Assembly: GCF_030013205.1 (NCBI RefSeq)
Contig: NZ_CP122648.1
From: Escherichia coli
GTDB lineage: Bacteria > Pseudomonadota > Gammaproteobacteria > Enterobacterales > Enterobacteriaceae
Direction: 5' to 3' (one strand)
Length of the DNA stretch: 64,000 bases
A program made the position numbers. This document shows, piece after piece, positions 18,301-27,300 of the stretch. The first letter of the stretch is position 1; every line of letters begins with the position of its first letter.

Positions 18301-21300
18301 TTCATGATCAGGTTGAAAACTTCCGGTGATTTATGCGGTGTCGCAGGCGCACCAACCAGCGTCATGGTGCCATCACGCTTCAGCAAGGTGGTAAAATCGT
18401 CGAGATTATGTGGCGCAGCTACTGTATTCAAAATGAAATCGAAACTCTTCACATGAGCCGCCATCTCATCGGCATTGCGTGAGTTAACAACTTCATCGGC
18501 CCCCAGGGCTTTTGCCGCTTCGCGTTTTGACTCAGAAGTGGTAAATGCCACCACATGCGCCCCCATCGCGTGGGCCAGCTTAATCCCCATATGTCCCAGA
18601 CCGCCGATGCCGACCACGCCCACTTTTTTACCCGGACCGGCCTGCCAGTGACGTAGCGGCGAATACGTGGTGATCCCTGCACACAACAAAGGAGCCACCG
18701 CCGCCAGCTGCTCTTGCGGGTGACGAATACGCAGAACATATCGCTCATGAACGACGATCTGTTGTGAGTAGCCGCCCAGAGTATGGCCCGGTTCGTCCGG
18801 CGTCGGCGAGTTATAGGTGCCGGTCATGTGATCACAGTAGTTTTCCAGCCCGTCTTCACACTCTTCGCAATGTTTACAACTGTCGACAATACAGCCGACA
18901 CCGACCAGATCGCCCGGCGCATATTTTTCTACCTGATCACCAACAGCTACCACGCGCCCTACAATTTCATGGCCCGGCACGCAGGGATAAACCGTCCCCG
19001 CCCACTCGGAACGGACCTGGTGGATATCGGAATGGCAGACGCCACAGTAAGCGATTTCAATTTTGACATCATGCGGTCCCGGTTCACGCCGGGTAATATC
19101 CATCGGTTCCAGCGGTTGTTTAGCGGAATATGCACCAACAGCTCTGATCTTCATTGTGTTTACTCCTGATTAGCTATGTGTATTTGGCGATGCCTGATAT
19201 GTCATCGCGGCAAAACGCGTCCATTGAATATAGCCAATATTTAAACCACCCGATCCAGCCCCAACATGCCGCGAGCCTGAATGAAACAGAGCAGCAACGT
19301 TCCCCATAAGGCCATCGTCAGGTAGGGGCTTATACCAAGAATATTGAAACCGCTTTCAATAATTTGCAGAAGAAATAGCGCCAGCACCATACCAATTATC
19401 CGCCCGCTGCCGCCGTCCGGATTAACCCCGCCGAGTACTGCCGCGAGGATTGACACCAGCAAGTACGATTCGCCATAAGAGGCCTTAGCCGAGTTGAGTT
19501 TCGACATCATCAAAAATGCCGCTACCGCACAAAGCAAGGCGGAAATGACATAAACCCAAATCAGCACCCGACGAGTGTTAATGCCGGAGTAAAGTGTTGC
19601 TCGTTCGTTAGACCCAATCAGGTAAATGGCTTTACCGAGCGGCGTTTTCTCCAGCAATATCCACAGCCCCAGCGCCACTGCGGTAAACAACCACATCGGT
19701 AGCGGAATACCGAACCACTGTGCATGATTCAACCACAGCACCCATGAGGGATAATTGGCAATGGCGCTACCGCCTGTCACCAGAATATTTACCCCTTTGA
19801 GCAACGTCATCATCCCAAGCGTTGCAAGAATTGGCGACACTCGAATACCAGCAATCAATACGCCGTTACATAAACCGATTATCACCGCCGCGCCAGCGCC
19901 CGCCAGTAACGTAGCGACAACCGTAGCAATACCCGGTGGATACTGAGTCGCCACCCACGCCATCACCAGTGAACAGGCGTTAGCAGTGGCAATAATTGAC
20001 AAGTTAATGCCACCGCAAAGCATGGTCACCGCCATAGCCAACGCCAGAATGCCCAGCACGGGCATTTGCGAAGCGACGGACTGGAAATTACTTATCGACC
20101 AGAAAATCTCCGGCATAGTAATGCTGAACGCGGCAACCGTTAGCACCAGCAGGCCGATCAAGTAAAACTCAACGTTATTACGCCACGATTTTTTCATAGC
20201 AGACTCCGGTTCTGATGCTGACTCCACGCCGTGGCGCTAATGCTGGCAACGATGATGATGCCTGTGATCAATGTTTGCCAGTAAGACGAGACTCCCAATA
20301 AATTTAGCCCGTTTTGCATTACTGCCAACAACACCACGCCGAGCAAAGTACCGGTTAACGTGCCGCGCCCGCCGAGCAAACTAGTGCCACCAAGCACCAC
20401 CGCAGCCAGTACTGTCAGCTCATAACCCAGAAGAGAATCGGGGGCGACAGTCATCACCGTCCACGACTGCACTACACCCGCAGCGCCAGACATCAATCCC
20501 ATATAGCCGTAGACGAAAAGTTGCAGTTTCAGCACGCTAAAGCCGATGCGACTGGCGGATTCACGGTTCCCGCCAAGGGCATAAATTTTGCGCCCTACAC
20601 TGGTGAAATTCATGATAAACGCTGTCAGCAGCACCACCGTAATCATGGCGATCAGCGGCAGACCAAGGCCATAGTCATAGCCATCAGCATCGGTGTACTT
20701 GAACAACATTACCCCCTGCTCAAACCACGGCGGAAAGTCGTACAGCCACACACCTTTACTCAACCATAACAGCAGGCCATAGAAAATATTCAGCGTCGAA
20801 ATGGTGATGATGATAGAAGGCACCCGTAGGCGATTAACCAGTAAGGCGTTTATTAAGCCAAGTAAAATGCCGATGCCGCCCGCCAGGGCAAACGCGACAG
20901 CAAAGTTGCCACCAATTTTTTGCAGCAACAGCACCATGCCGTATTGCGCAATGATGGTCATTGCCGGAAACGAAATATCAATCCCACCGGAAATTAACAC
21001 CACAAACAAACCACAGGCGAGAATAGTCAACATGGCATAGTTATTGGCGAGATCGTACAAATTACCGAATGTCAGAAACTCGTCGCTGCGCCAGGCAAGG
21101 CCAACAAACAGCACCACAATCAGTAATGCCAGCCAGAATTCATGGCGTTTTTTCAGTTCAGCCATTTACCACCTCCGCAATCCTGGCCTGAGAACTGCTG
21201 TCAGGCAGGAAGCTATGGGTGATCTGACCTTTTTGCATTACCAAAATCCGGTGGCTTTGATACCACGCTTCTTCAATTTCATCGCAGATCATCAATACCG

Positions 21301-24300: not shown

Positions 24301-27300
24301 TGGGGATATTTTTGTGAGATTTTTTCTTTTATGGTCATGAGAATATTTTCGCGATTACGGAAAAACAAATCACATCTTAATTACTGTTGATAACCATCAG
24401 CAAGAAGATCATTGGTTTTTCGATGCTTAATCTTTTTTATCCGAAGCAGGTCACATTTATGGCTTGATAAATATCTTTGTTAAAACTCACTTTTGTGTAT
24501 TTCTCTCAAATAATCCCCTGGAAATTACGCCCGGAGATTATAAAGTTCAGGATCATTCATTAGCTAACCATTGCTGCCCCACTCCCTGGGGCTTTAAATC
24601 TCTTACTGTTCACCATTGCAGGCGTTTCAAATGCGTATCAACCTGCCACACTCCCCCACACCAGTTGCCCTTTATGGAACGTCGCCGTTCTCGGCGAGAT
24701 ACGCGCCACCGCCTCGGCGGAACAGGAGGCGTCCACCAGCACAAAGCTGGCATCATCCTGCGCTTTGGGCCACACGCGCTCGCCTTTTTCGTTGAGCGGC
24801 AATACATCGCCAGTGGCTAAAAACAGCGAGCGGGAGAGGTTCTGTTCGTTAGGACGAATATAGAGCTGCGCGTACAGATTGGCTTTTTCCAGCATGTCGC
24901 CCAGGCCGTAAGGCGACCAGTGGTCGATAACGCTGTCGGTGCCGGTCATCACTTTTACGCCTTTGTCGTGCAACTGTTTGAGCGGCATATGCAGCGTGCC
25001 AATCGGCACCGTCGAGGCGATAGAAATTTGCTGCGCCGCCATCCGGTGCGCCAGTTCATCTACCTGTTGCTCATTGAGCGTTGCCAGCGCAAAGGCGTGG
25101 CTGATGGTCAGCTTGCCCTTCAGTTGCGGCGTTTTCTCCACCGTTTCAACCATATAATTGATGGCTGCCACGCCTGCCGGAGTGGTTTCGTGCAGGTGAA
25201 TATCAACGCCTTTGTCGTAGTCCAGCGCAATCTGGAACATGGTGTCGAGGGATTTTTCCATCGCGCCATCAACACTGGTCGGGTCCAGCCCGCCGACGTA
25301 ATGCGCCCCCGCCTGCATCGCTTCGCGCATTAAGGGTTCTGATTTCGACAGCAGCAAACCGTGCTGCGGGAAGGCGACAATTTCACACTCGAAGCCCGCC
25401 TGACGTCGCGCCAGAACCGCCTGCAAATTTTGCAGATTTTTCAGGCCGGAAACCGGTTCGATATTGCAGTGGCTGCGGGCAATGGTAGTGCCTTTCGACT
25501 GCAATAAATCAATCAGTTTTTCCGCCCTTTCCTGAGTGTACGGTTGCAACTCCGGCAGCATTTTCTGCTCGAGTTTGATCATGTCCTGGATGGTGGTGCC
25601 TGCCGGACGATTGAGCGAGCGCCACGGCCCGCCGTAGAAGGTTTTGTCGAGATGAATATGCATGTCGCGGGTGGTGGGCAGCATCAGCTTACCGCCAGCG
25701 TCATAGTGCGGCAGCGTGGCGTCCGGATGCTGATTGTTCTCGCGCAGTGCAACAATTTTGCCGTTCTGAATTTCCACAGTCTGGCGCGCCGTGCGGGTCT
25801 GCACCGCCACGCCATTTTCGTAGTCAAAACCGGTTTCCAGCAACACGTTGTCGAGATAGTAGTGCGGGTCAGTGATTTTCATGGTGTTATTCGCGTCGCA
25901 GTGGGTTGTGCCAGAGACTGCCGCATGGGCGAGCGGCACAGAGGTACCAAACAGCGCGGCGGCGGTGACCATCTTACCGCTCTGGCTCAGAAACTCACGG
26001 CGGCTATTGCTTTCTTTCATCTTACGTCCTTACGTTTTAATAATATGGGTGCCCGTTTCACCGCGCAGCGCCGCAGGCAGGCATTCCGGCGTGGTGATAA
26101 TCACTTCTTTACCGCCCTGCTCCAGGAACGTCAGGCTGGCGATGATTTTTGGCAACATGCTGCCGGGTGGGAAATGCCCTTCCTGCATATAGCGGGTCAT
26201 GGTGGCAATATCCACCCGATCCAGCGCCTGCTGCTGCGGTTTACCAAAATGAATACACACTTTTTCCACGCCCGTGGTGATCACCAGAATGTCGGCGTGA
26301 ATTTCGCGAGCCAGTAGCGCGGTAGAGAGATCTTTGTCGATAACCGCGTCCACGCTTTGGTAATCCCCCGCTTCAGTGCGCACCACAGGAATTCCACCGC
26401 CGCCCGCGCCAATCACCACAAAGCCTTGTTGGATCAGCGCCTTAATGGCAGGTGCTTCGACAATACGTTTCGGTTCCGGCGAGGCGACCACGCGGCGATA
26501 GCCCCGTCCGGCATCTTCAACAAAACGCCAGTCAGGGTTTGCCTTTTGTAATTCGTCACGCTGGCTTTCACTGAAGAATGCGCCGATGGGCTTGGTGGGA
26601 TGGGCAAACCCCGGATCGTTTTTATCCACTTCCACCTGAGTCACCACGGTGACGGCTTTTTTCTCACCGTGACGCGCCAGTCGGTTATTCAGCGCCTGTT
26701 GGATCAGATAGCCAATGCCGCCTTGCGTATCCGCCACACAGTTCGCCAGCGGCGTTAAGGGCAGCCCTTCGCGCTCGTGGGCTATCTCCGCGCGGCGTAA
26801 ATCCAGACCGACCTGCGGCCCGTTGCCGTGGGTCAGCACAATATCGTAATCGGAAGCCAGCATTTCCAGCACCGTATCGGCGACGGCCTTCACCGCCTCC
26901 GCCTGATGCTCAATCGACTGGCTGGCGTTATCTTTGATAATGCTGTTGCCACCAATGGCAACGACCACAAGTTCTTTCATGTTGTTATGTCCGCTACAGA
27001 GGGTGATGGGGTTATGAGAGTGAGGTTGCCCCTCTCCCCAGAAGGGAGAAGGGATCGTAAGGTGCGTTTGCAGGTCAGACGCCGTAACGTTCGCACCAGC
27101 CAAGAATGGCTTTCTCGAAGCAGGCGAATGGTGGATGCACAATGCCCGCGCCAATCATGCCGACGCCCGCATCTTTATGGGCAATGGCGGTGTTGATCAC
27201 CGGCAGAATGCCGCTGCTGCCCACGCGGGTGATGTCGATTGCCGTCGGCACACCCATAAAACCGAGCAGCGGAATGGTGACGTTGGGGTTTTCGCCGAGA

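What the first reader, a model, noticed from the sequence alone, without database searches (positions are those of the whole stretch)
19155..24637. CUT2 sugar ABC transporter plus ASCH-domain gene inserted between yahK and yahJ
As far as I recall, yahK and yahJ are adjacent in K-12. Here about 5.4 kb lies between them: a binding protein with an LsrB-like C-terminus, a dual-cassette ATPase, two permeases and a small ASCH-fold gene. All are co-directional with yahJ and yahK and carry coupling overlaps (ATGA, 8 bp). The substrate is unknown; a binding protein of the ribose/AI-2 type would fit a furanose or a (modified) ribonucleoside. This is a strain-variable accessory module at a conserved junction with no function I can assign.
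Basis: partly seen in the sequence, partly recalled or inferred. Interest (0 to 1): 0.6.

Follow-up and report, generated by a model that had tools for sequence, protein, structure and literature searches.

The report
Known Aau D-ribulose/L-arabinose ABC importer
The 5.5 kb between yahK and yahJ is the already characterised E. coli Aau sugar importer (D-ribulose and L-arabinose, switched on by AraC) plus a separate small ASCH gene, and K-12 lacks them because it deleted them, not because this strain gained them.

Summary
Between yahK and yahJ lie a binding-protein gene, a fused double ATPase gene, two permease genes with ATGA and 8-bp overlaps, and an ASCH gene, all on the minus strand. The claim that the function is unknown is out of date.

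The binding protein is 325/328 identical to AauA (PDB 9I1M) and keeps all six D-ribulose contact residues. This is the Aau system (Z0415-9, O-island 17) of Cottam et al. 2024/2025. It is induced by AraC and L-arabinose. AauA binds D-ribulose at about 2 µM and L-arabinose at about 600 µM. AraB phosphorylates the imported D-ribulose. It is not LsrB: 1 of 6 AI-2 contact residues is kept and it scores 111 bits against a 384-bit cut-off.

"Inserted" has the direction wrong. K-12's yahJ-yahK spacer still encodes the last 23 residues of AauD and holds the 3' end of the ASCH gene. The same aauD breakpoint occurs in a cryptic Escherichia lineage, and a more distant lineage carries aau beside yahK.

Among 5426 complete E. 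coli genomes, 2211 carry the module and 2759 carry the K-12-type scar.

A CRP-like site and AraC-like half-sites upstream of aauA are conserved across genera.

The ASCH gene is not linked to aau outside Escherichia, and its function is unknown.

Verdict: already known; low interest.

The parts
19241..20197 (-). aauD, permease 2 (318 aa)
   Evidence: It is an ORF. PGAP uses the same coordinates in the 100%-identical strain W13-16. Ribose, LsrD and AraH permease models all score below their cut-offs. Its start overlaps the aauC stop by ATGA.
20194..21165 (-). aauC, permease 1 (323 aa)
   Evidence: It is 89-94% identical to the Klebsiella and Franconibacter orthologues.
21158..22642 (-). aauB, fused double-cassette ABC ATPase (494 aa, intact)
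   Evidence: The ORF is. The ATG at 22642 (METFLSL...) matches the 494-aa Klebsiella orthologue, which starts MEPFLSL. It also matches the 1485-nt gene length annotated in O157:H7. AraG, YtfR, XylG and LsrA models score 380-420 bits, all below their cut-offs. PGAP's shorter start at 22561 in W13-16 would begin only about 15 residues before the first Walker A motif, GQNGCGKS.
22664..22681 (-). G+C-rich hairpin with a GAAA loop between aauA and aauB
   Evidence: The terminator-like scan found it. A fold of the 65-nt stretch gives -19.1 kcal/mol with z = -1.5. Its role is inferred: partial termination or mRNA stabilisation that favours excess binding protein.
22691..23677 (-). aauA, periplasmic D-ribulose/L-arabinose binding protein (328 aa; PGAP starts at 23674)
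   Evidence: It is 325/328 identical to PDB 9I1M. K37, W43, E118, H167, E196 and S223 are all present. Pfam Peripla_BP_4 matches at 5e-63.
23762..23767 (-). predicted -10 hexamer TATTCT of the aau promoter
   Evidence: This is inferred. It lies 21 nt after the I2-like site; in K-12 araBAD the TACTGT hexamer (the -10 as I recall it) lies 20 nt after the second AraC-consensus half-site. The block GTTTAYTCT is conserved in orthologous promoters.
23789..23826 (-). two AraC-like half-sites in direct repeat: I1-like TGCCCGTTTTGTCCATA (23826-23810), spacer TTTA, I2-like TAACCAAATTTTTAATA (23805-23789)
   Evidence: TCCATA is invariant, and TAGC follows 4 bp later in the other genera (TAAC in both Escherichia sequences), across Escherichia, Klebsiella, Franconibacter, Mangrovibacter and Symbiopectobacterium. 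The 17+4+17 layout matches the stretch TAGCATTTTTATCCATA-AGAT-TAGCGGATCCTACCTGA read in the K-12 araBAD promoter; naming those araI1/araI2 is from memory. As an isolated pattern match it is not above chance in the window. AraC dependence of this promoter is experimental (PMC11127945), but the binding site itself has not been mapped.
23838..23853 (-). CRP-like site CGTGATGATTGTCACA
   Evidence: It has one mismatch to TGTGA-N6-TCACA. The window holds 3 such matches against 1.9 expected. The TCAC half is invariant in orthologous promoters. TCACA lies 22 nt before TCCATA here and 24 nt before it at araBAD.
23928..24338 (-). ASCH-domain gene (136 aa, YhfF-like), a separate gene of unknown function
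   Evidence: Pfam PF04266 matches at 1e-21. The PDB relatives 1T62 and 3S9X have no assigned function. It is not linked to aau in other genera.
19313..23832 (.). interval missing in K-12-type genomes (deletion 1: most of aauD, then aauC, aauB, aauA and the core promoter)
   Evidence: K-12 matches the window up to 19312 and again, in diverged form, from about 23833. The retained 72 bp encode ALWGTLLLCFIQARGMLGLDRVV*, which is the AauD C-terminus.
23976..24574 (.). interval missing in K-12-type genomes (deletion 2: most of the ASCH gene and its upstream region)
   Evidence: K-12 keeps window 23906-23975 (the last 48 coding bases of the ASCH gene plus 22 bases downstream of its stop) and resumes at 24575.

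Best explanation
This is an intact copy of the Aau system (aauABCD; EDL933 Z0415-Z0419, 'O-island 17'). It is a CUT2-type ABC importer.

Mechanism, as shown experimentally on EHEC proteins about 99% identical to these. AraC bound to L-arabinose activates the promoter upstream of aauA. Periplasmic AauA binds alpha-D-ribulose tightly (Kd about 2 µM) and L-arabinose weakly (Kd about 600 µM). AauB, AauC and AauD import the sugar. D-ribulose is then phosphorylated by the L-ribulokinase AraB and enters the pentose phosphate pathway. D-ribulose is therefore used only when L-arabinose is also present.

Inferred here. The promoter contains a CRP-like site followed by two AraC-like half-sites in an araBAD-like geometry.

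The ASCH gene upstream is an independent gene of unknown function.

The locus is old in Escherichia. K-12-type genomes lost it through two deletions that left gene fragments behind.
For: Identity of the system:
- AauA is 325/328 identical to PDB 9I1M.
- All six published contact residues are present (the residue list comes from PMC12307932).
- O157:H7 has the same gene order and the same neighbours.
- AraC dependence, the Kd values and the role of AraB come from PMC11127945 and PMC12307932.
- aauB is one uninterrupted 494-aa ORF here. In O157:H7 Z1812 it carries an internal stop. The paper reports a premature stop in TUV93-0.

Promoter:
- The CRP-like and AraC-like blocks are conserved across five genera, with araBAD-like spacing.
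- In Mannheimia an AraC equivalog (384 bits against a 208-bit cut-off) lies directly upstream of the orthologous operon.

Deletion origin of the K-12 state:
- Remnants of aauD and of the ASCH gene are present in K-12.
- The AauD C-terminus is conserved in Klebsiella and Franconibacter.
- Escherichia sp. E2593 (93.6% DNA identity) has the same aauD breakpoint and an alignable scar.
- A lineage at 89% identity has aau next to yahK.
- G+C content of the aau genes is 0.47-0.53. No integrase, IS element or flanking direct repeats were found, and the only tRNA call nearby is a probable false positive.
Against: - Nothing was measured in this strain. Function is transferred from proteins 99% identical.
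- The AraC and CRP sites are predictions. As single pattern matches they are not above chance, and neither paper maps a site.
- The published papers call the locus horizontally acquired. Outside Escherichia its distribution is patchy: it was found in Klebsiella, Franconibacter, Mangrovibacter and Yersinia, but no Salmonella or Citrobacter locus appeared among the 80 kept. An older acquisition before the Escherichia radiation therefore remains possible.
- The junctions in E. fergusonii and E. albertii could not be examined.
Confidence: 0.93

Rival explanations
1. It is an autoinducer-2 (Lsr-type) importer, as the PGAP product name 'autoinducer 2 ABC transporter substrate-binding protein' suggests.
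For: PGAP gives this name in most genomes. LsrB structures are detectable relatives at 80-88 bits.
Against: - The LsrB equivalog model scores 110.8 bits against a cut-off of 384.
- Of the six AI-2 contact residues (K35, D116, D166, Q167, P220, A222; PMC3386761), only the lysine is kept. AauA has K37, E118, Q166, H167, F221 and S223.
- No lsrK, lsrR, lsrF or lsrG lies next to it.
- The crystal ligand is D-ribulose.
Confidence: 0.01
2. The transporter, the ASCH protein and the amidohydrolase YahJ form one pathway for a ribonucleoside or N-acylated nucleoside. The substrate would be imported, deacylated by ASCH and deaminated by YahJ.
For: - The three are adjacent and co-directional.
- YahJ is related to cytosine deaminases, though it scores below their cut-offs.
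- Some ASCH proteins (YqfB) are N4-acetylcytidine amidohydrolases.
- ASCH K38, S41 and E95 line up with YqfB K21, T24 and E74 in a weak profile alignment.
- ASCH and aau co-occur in E. coli: 2212 versus 2211 genomes.
Against: - The ligand of AauA is solved and is a free ketopentose.
- ASCH is absent from every aau locus outside Escherichia.
- ASCH homologues sit in unrelated contexts.
- E2593 has yahJ-ASCH-yahK without aau.
- A 250-bp spacer holding the aau promoter separates ASCH from aauA.
- The hhalign probability is 2.5%, and the Arg26 equivalent is a glycine.
Confidence: 0.03
3. The module is a recently acquired genomic island inserted into an originally adjacent yahJ-yahK pair.
For: - It is absent from K-12 and from about half of E. 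coli genomes.
- It is enriched in phylogroups B1 and E and correlates with the LEE (PMC11127945).
- Its distribution among Enterobacterales is patchy.
Against: - K-12's spacer encodes the last 23 residues of AauD and holds the ASCH 3' end.
- The same scar is present in phylogroup B2 strain 536 at 96% identity and in a cryptic Escherichia lineage.
- aau lies beside yahK in a lineage only 89% identical in DNA.
- G+C content is typical of E. coli, and there are no mobility genes or boundary repeats.
Confidence: 0.05

Closest known systems
Aau (AauABCD, Z0415-Z0419, OI-17) of enterohaemorrhagic E. coli; AauA structure PDB 9I1M (Cottam et al., Nat Commun 2024 and 2025)
   Same: It is the same locus at the same chromosomal position. 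The binding protein is 99% identical with all six ligand contacts. The gene order is the same, and the ASCH, yahJ and yahK neighbours are the same.
   Different: AauA has three substitutions away from the pocket (D202V, S267T, I306M relative to 9I1M). The host is an O139:H1 wild-boar isolate rather than O157:H7. aauB is intact here, whereas EDL933-lineage strains carry a stop codon.
Rbl (rblABCD-rblK-rblI) D-ribulose locus of Citrobacter rodentium
   Same: It is a homologous CUT2 transporter, about 60% identical according to PMC12307932, with the same preferred sugar.
   Different: Rbl carries its own FGGY D-ribulokinase and an isomerase, and it is induced by D-ribulose. No kinase follows aauD here: yahK starts 86 bp later. 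Kinase-linked relatives are seen in Morganella (TIGR01315, 720 bits) and Mannheimia.
Klebsiella pneumoniae orthologue (PDB 3D02, deposited as 'putative LacI-type transcriptional regulator')
   Same: It is 91% identical to AauA. The operon has the same four genes, also lacks a kinase, and has the same conserved CRP-like and AraC-like promoter blocks.
   Different: It has different chromosomal neighbours (a tryptophan-tRNA ligase gene and a KefF-like oxidoreductase gene) and no ASCH, yahJ or yahK nearby.
LsrB/LsrACD autoinducer-2 importer and Rhizobium RhaS rhamnose-binding protein
   Same: They belong to the same Peripla_BP_4 subfamily and have the same ABC architecture.
   Different: Their models score far below the family cut-offs (LsrB 111 against 384; RhaS 135 against 342). 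Only 1 of 6 LsrB contact residues is kept.
EF3133/YhfF-like ASCH proteins (PDB 1T62, 3S9X) and YqfB N4-acetylcytidine amidohydrolase
   Same: The ASCH gene product matches 1T62 and 3S9X (profile E-values 3e-34 and 1e-26) and shares the Pfam ASCH domain with YqfB.
   Different: No function is known for 1T62 or 3S9X. YqfB is not reached by a sequence profile. The YqfB Arg26 position is a glycine here.

Membership tests
Aau system (AauABCD) | Binding protein orthologous to AauA (PDB 9I1M) | tested here: met
   325/328 identical over the full length, E = 5e-213.
Aau system (AauABCD) | D-ribulose contact residues K37, W43, E118, H167, E196, S223 | tested here: met
   All six are present at those positions. 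The residue list is from PMC12307932.
Aau system (AauABCD) | Operon of binding protein, ATPase and two permeases at the yahK-proximal (OI-17) position | tested here: met
   Order and neighbours are the same as in O157:H7 Z1812.
Aau system (AauABCD) | Uninterrupted ATPase gene (a functional locus) | tested here: met
   It is a single 494-aa ORF. Compare the internal stop in O157:H7 and in TUV93-0.
Aau system (AauABCD) | AraC-dependent induction by L-arabinose | not testable with these tools
   Only sequence evidence is available: conserved AraC-like half-sites and a CRP-like site at 23789-23853. As single matches they are not significant.
CUT2 sugar ABC importers | Peripla_BP_4 binding protein, fused double ABC ATPase, and two permeases of the ribose/arabinose-permease type | tested here: met
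   Pfam PF13407 matches at 5e-63. The ATPase aligns end to end with AraG, XylG and RbsA models, and the permeases align with RbsC and AraH models.
LsrB-type AI-2 receptor | NCBIfam LsrB equivalog cut-off, and more than 63% identity to Salmonella LsrB | tested here: not met
   110.8 bits against a cut-off of 384. The match to LsrB chains is only about 80-88 bits.
LsrB-type AI-2 receptor | Six AI-2 contact residues K35, D116, D166, Q167, P220, A222 | tested here: not met
   The aligned residues are K37, E118, Q166, H167, F221 and S223, so 1 of 6 is kept. The criteria are from PMC3386761.
LsrB-type AI-2 receptor | lsrK, lsrR, lsrF and lsrG neighbours | tested here: not met
   None lies within the yahL-yahG stretch.
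Rbl-type dedicated D-ribulose locus | FGGY D-ribulokinase (and an isomerase) in the operon | tested here: not met
   aauD is followed after 86 bp by yahK. Kinases are present only in more distant relatives.
Ribose (RbsB), rhamnose (RhaS), allose and xylose binding proteins | NCBIfam equivalog cut-offs | tested here: not met
   RhaS 135 against 342; RbsB 45.5 against 337; AlsB 49.6 against 335; XylF 36.6 against 390.
Horizontally acquired genomic island | Mobility genes, tRNA or direct-repeat boundaries, deviant composition, and a clean empty site in genomes that lack it | tested here: not met
   - No integrase or IS ORF was found.
- No boundary repeats were found.
- G+C content of the aau genes is 0.47-0.53.
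- The 'empty' site contains aauD and ASCH fragments.
ASCH domain (PF04266) | Pfam domain match | tested here: met
   E = 1e-21 over residues 27-133.
YqfB-type N4-acetylcytidine amidohydrolase | G-K-T-R octapeptide and the Glu74 equivalent | tested here: inconclusive
   The motif GVKTASCG gives Lys38 and Ser41 but Gly at the Arg26 position. E95 aligns with E74. The hhalign probability is only 2.5%, and a sequence profile does not reach YqfB in the PDB.

The most novel reading that the evidence does not exclude
The yahJ-yahK junction holds an old presence/absence polymorphism rather than an island. Aau would be an ancestral member of the AraC/CRP regulon in Escherichia and related genera. One ancient deletion allele, with the same aauD breakpoint, is now carried by about half of E. 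coli and by a cryptic Escherichia lineage. That would suggest long-term maintenance or exchange of both alleles, for example by niche-dependent selection on scavenging of D-ribulose and L-arabinose. The ASCH gene, deleted along with aau in E. coli, might be a small N-acyl amidohydrolase.
Probability: 0.35. Interest if true: 0.35.

Novelty: already known. Interest (0 to 1): 0.15.

Why it matters
The transporter itself needs no new explanation. Its substrate, regulator, structure and role in gut colonisation were published in 2024-2025. This check adds four things.

1. The direction of the event is corrected. K-12 and about half of E. coli carry a deletion scar, which weakens the 'horizontally acquired pathogenicity island' label used for OI-17.
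2. A predicted promoter anatomy (CRP-like site plus two AraC-like half-sites, conserved across genera) can be tested directly.
3. Two annotation errors are flagged: the 'autoinducer 2' product name and a truncated start for aauB.
4. The ASCH gene is separated from the transporter and remains a gene of unknown function.

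Tried and rejected
- NCBIfam equivalog models for Lsr, ribose, rhamnose, allose, xylose, arabinose and galactofuranose components: none reaches its cut-off. The identity came from the PDB sequence search instead.
- A literature search for 3D02 found nothing.
- AraC and CRP consensus scans over the window are not above chance on their own. I used them only together with cross-genus conservation.
- The sigma-70 and terminator scan gave no more hits than shuffled sequence.
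- Rfam found nothing in 18900-24900.
- No flanking direct or inverted repeats mark the module ends.
- Context of ASCH homologues in Yersinia and Kosakonia showed no shared neighbours.
- An ASCH profile searched against the PDB did not reach YqfB, and hhalign against YqfB was weak. I therefore did not assign an enzymatic function.
- I did not run structure prediction of AauA, because a crystal structure of a 99%-identical protein exists.
- My first tblastn table mislabelled aauD by picking the paralogous aauC hit. I checked aauD separately.

Full report
OBSERVATION

The region 19155-24637 contains five intact minus-strand genes between yahK (18105-19154) and yahJ (24638-26020):
- aauD, permease, 19241-20197
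- aauC, permease, 20194-21165
- aauB, fused double ABC ATPase, 21158-22642
- aauA, periplasmic binding protein, 22691-23677
- a 136-aa ASCH-domain gene, 23928-24338

The window is 100% identical over this stretch to E. coli O139:H1 strain W13-16 from a wild boar, where PGAP annotates the same five genes. In K-12 MG1655, yahJ and yahK are neighbours separated by 376 bp.

WHAT IT IS

None of the NCBIfam equivalog models for known sugar systems reaches its cut-off. For the binding protein, RhaS scores 135 against 342 and LsrB 111 against 384.

A search of solved structures gave the answer. The binding protein is 325/328 identical to PDB 9I1M and 91% identical to Klebsiella 3D02. 9I1M is AauA, the binding protein of the Aau system of enterohaemorrhagic E. 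coli (Cottam et al., Nat Commun 2025, PMC12307932).

That paper and its predecessor (PMC11127945) establish the following:
- The locus is Z0415-Z0419 on O-island 17.
- Its promoter responds only to L-arabinose and requires AraC.
- AauA binds D-ribulose with Kd 1.98 µM and L-arabinose with Kd 598 µM.
- The crystal shows alpha-D-ribulose held by K37, W43, E118, H167, E196 and S223.
- Imported D-ribulose is phosphorylated by AraB.
- The system gives a fitness advantage in the mouse gut.

All six contact residues are present in the window protein. The three differences from 9I1M (positions 202, 267, 306) are not contacts. O157:H7 strain Z1812 has the same arrangement: yahK, two permeases, ATPase, binding protein, ASCH, yahJ.

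aauB is intact here. In O157:H7 Z1812 it is annotated as a pseudogene with an internal stop, and the paper reports a premature stop in TUV93-0. The 494-aa reading from the ATG at 22642 agrees with the Klebsiella orthologue and with the 1485-nt O157 gene. PGAP's shorter start in W13-16 looks like a start-site error.

IT IS NOT LsrB

PGAP names the binding protein 'autoinducer 2 ABC transporter substrate-binding protein'. The published criteria for functional LsrB are more than 63% identity and six contact residues: K35, D116, D166, Q167, P220 and A222 (PMC3386761). Aligned to LsrB 5GTA, AauA has K37, E118, Q166, H167, F221 and S223, so only one of six is kept. No lsr partner genes are nearby. 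The name is misleading.

DIRECTION OF THE EVENT

The K-12 spacer says otherwise.
- K-12 matches the window up to 19312, which is 72 bp into the 3' end of aauD. That stretch translates to ALWGTLLLCFIQARGMLGLDRVV*, identical to the AauD C-terminus and conserved in Klebsiella and Franconibacter AauD.
- K-12 then continues with a diverged copy of the region upstream of the aau promoter, from about 23833, and the last 48 coding bases of the ASCH gene (to 23975). It resumes at 24575.
- K-12 is therefore a double-deletion derivative, missing about 19313-23832 and 23976-24574.

Counts among 5426 complete E. coli genomes:
- 2211 hold at least 80% of the module.
- 2212 hold the ASCH gene.
- 2759 hold the K-12-type junction, including phylogroup B2 strain 536 at 96% identity.
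- About 450 have other states that I did not examine.

Two divergent Escherichia lineages help date the events.
- Escherichia sp. E2593 (93.6% DNA identity) has yahJ, an intact ASCH gene, and then the same aauD remnant with the same breakpoint (window 19314). Its scar aligns with the K-12 scar.
- A genome labelled E. coli SCPM-O-B-8794, only about 89% identical, carries aauABCD next to yahK and yahL. Its ASCH gene is truncated by a different deletion.

The aau genes have E. coli-like G+C content (0.47-0.53). There are no mobility genes and no boundary repeats. The single ARAGORN tRNA call nearby is not supported by Rfam.

The simplest reading is that aau sat beside yahK before E. coli diverged from these lineages and was later lost by deletion. 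An older acquisition from another enterobacterial lineage is not excluded, because the family is patchy among genera.

PROMOTER ANATOMY (INFERRED)

The 250-bp spacer upstream of aauA contains, in the direction of the genes:
- a CRP-like site, CGTGATGATTGTCACA (23853-23838)
- eleven bases later, TGCCCGTTTTGTCCATA (23826-23810)
- the spacer TTTA
- TAACCAAATTTTTAATA (23805-23789)
- 21 bases later, TATTCT (23767-23762)

Taken alone these matches are not above chance. An alignment of orthologous upstream regions from a divergent Escherichia, Klebsiella, two Franconibacter species, Mangrovibacter and two Symbiopectobacterium genomes gives them weight. In that alignment TCAC and T-TCCATAT are invariant. 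TAGC follows four bases later in the other genera (TAAC in both Escherichia sequences). A GTTTAYTCT block is also conserved.

This layout is the AraC half-site consensus TAGC-N7-TCCATA in direct repeat with a 4-bp gap; that consensus is my recollection. The matching stretch in the K-12 araBAD promoter read here is TCACA, 24 nt, TCCATA, AGAT, TAGC..., 20 nt, TACTGT.

In Mannheimia haemolytica an AraC equivalog (384 bits against a 208-bit cut-off) lies immediately upstream of the orthologous operon.

AraC control therefore looks like an old property of this transporter family. It does not look like a recent co-option.

RELATIVES

Orthologous four-gene operons occur in Klebsiella, Franconibacter, Mangrovibacter, Yersinia, Pasteurellaceae and Vibrionaceae.
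- The closest ones (Klebsiella, Franconibacter, Yersinia, Leclercia) have no kinase, as in E. coli.
- More distant ones are followed by an FGGY kinase, as in the Citrobacter Rbl locus. In Morganella this is a pentulose kinase (TIGR01315, 720 bits); Mannheimia also has one.

THE ASCH GENE

It matches Pfam ASCH (1e-21). It also matches two structural-genomics entries without assigned function, 1T62 and 3S9X. Some sources name homologues YhfF.

It lies upstream of the aau promoter. It is missing from every aau locus outside Escherichia. Its homologues in Yersinia and Kosakonia have unrelated neighbours. It persists without aau in E2593. I therefore treat it as an independent gene.

Its invariant residues include G36, K38, T39, C42 and E95-G-E-G-D99. 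In a weak profile alignment to the N4-acetylcytidine amidohydrolase YqfB, K38, S41 and E95 fall on K21, T24 and E74, but the Arg26 position is a glycine and the probability is 2.5%. A small amidohydrolase activity is a reasonable guess, no more than that.

VERDICT

It is wrong or out of date on unknown function, on insertion and on ASCH as part of the module. The system is already known. The added value is the deletion-scar evidence, the conserved predicted AraC and CRP sites, and the annotation corrections.

Noticed in passing
window 22691-23677 (and RefSeq annotation of most E. coli genomes): PGAP names AauA 'autoinducer 2 ABC transporter substrate-binding protein'. It keeps only 1 of 6 LsrB contact residues and its solved ligand is D-ribulose, so the name is misleading.
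   Followed up: yes
window 22561-22642: In the 100%-identical strain W13-16, PGAP starts aauB at 22561 (467 aa). Orthologues and the O157:H7 annotation support the ATG at 22642 (494 aa).
   Followed up: yes
L092 8620-10104 (O157:H7 strain Z1812): aauB is annotated as a pseudogene with an internal stop in this O157:H7 genome. This is consistent with the split Z0416/Z0417 annotation and with the stop codon reported for TUV93-0. How many aau-positive genomes are actually functional was not counted.
   Followed up: partly
L003 (SFEK01000152.1, 'MAG: Bacteroidales bacterium'): A 4.7-kb contig binned as Bacteroidales carries aauA, aauB and aauC at 99-100% protein identity to E. coli. This is most likely E. 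coli contamination of the metagenome bin.
   Followed up: no
L089 10741-10833 (Escherichia sp. E2593): This lineage appears to lack yahL. Homology jumps from window 18058 to 16856, skipping 17047-17862.
   Followed up: no
L030 5994-7656: In the ~89%-identical Escherichia genome, the aau operon is joined upstream to sequence matching window 33259-34949. About 9 kb is therefore missing there (the ASCH 5' part, yahJ, yahI, yahG and further yah genes).
   Followed up: partly
window 16624-16704 (- strand): ARAGORN calls a tRNA-Ser(GGA) inside the yahM/xtpA region. Rfam finds no tRNA there (only a sub-threshold sRNA hit at 16478-16528, E = 0.17). It is probably a false positive.
   Followed up: partly
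window 22664-22681 (- strand): A seven-pair, G+C-rich hairpin with a GAAA loop lies 10 nt after the aauA stop and before aauB. It may be an intercistronic attenuator or stabiliser. Its conservation in orthologues was not checked.
   Followed up: partly
E. coli genome search results: A few matches to the module (9 places) and to the K-12 junction (12 places) lie on plasmids. One genome (strain L37) has an IS1 inserted in the scar. About 450 genomes have neither the full module nor the K-12-type scar.
   Followed up: no
window 24638-33000 (yahJ, yahI, yahG, yahF, yahE): In the contig annotations of the orthologous Escherichia loci, these upstream neighbours carry Pfam families named AllH, AllF-N and AllG, together with a carbamate kinase and an amidohydrolase. 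They look like a paralogous nitrogen-heterocycle or oxamate-type catabolic cluster whose substrate was not identified here.
   Followed up: no
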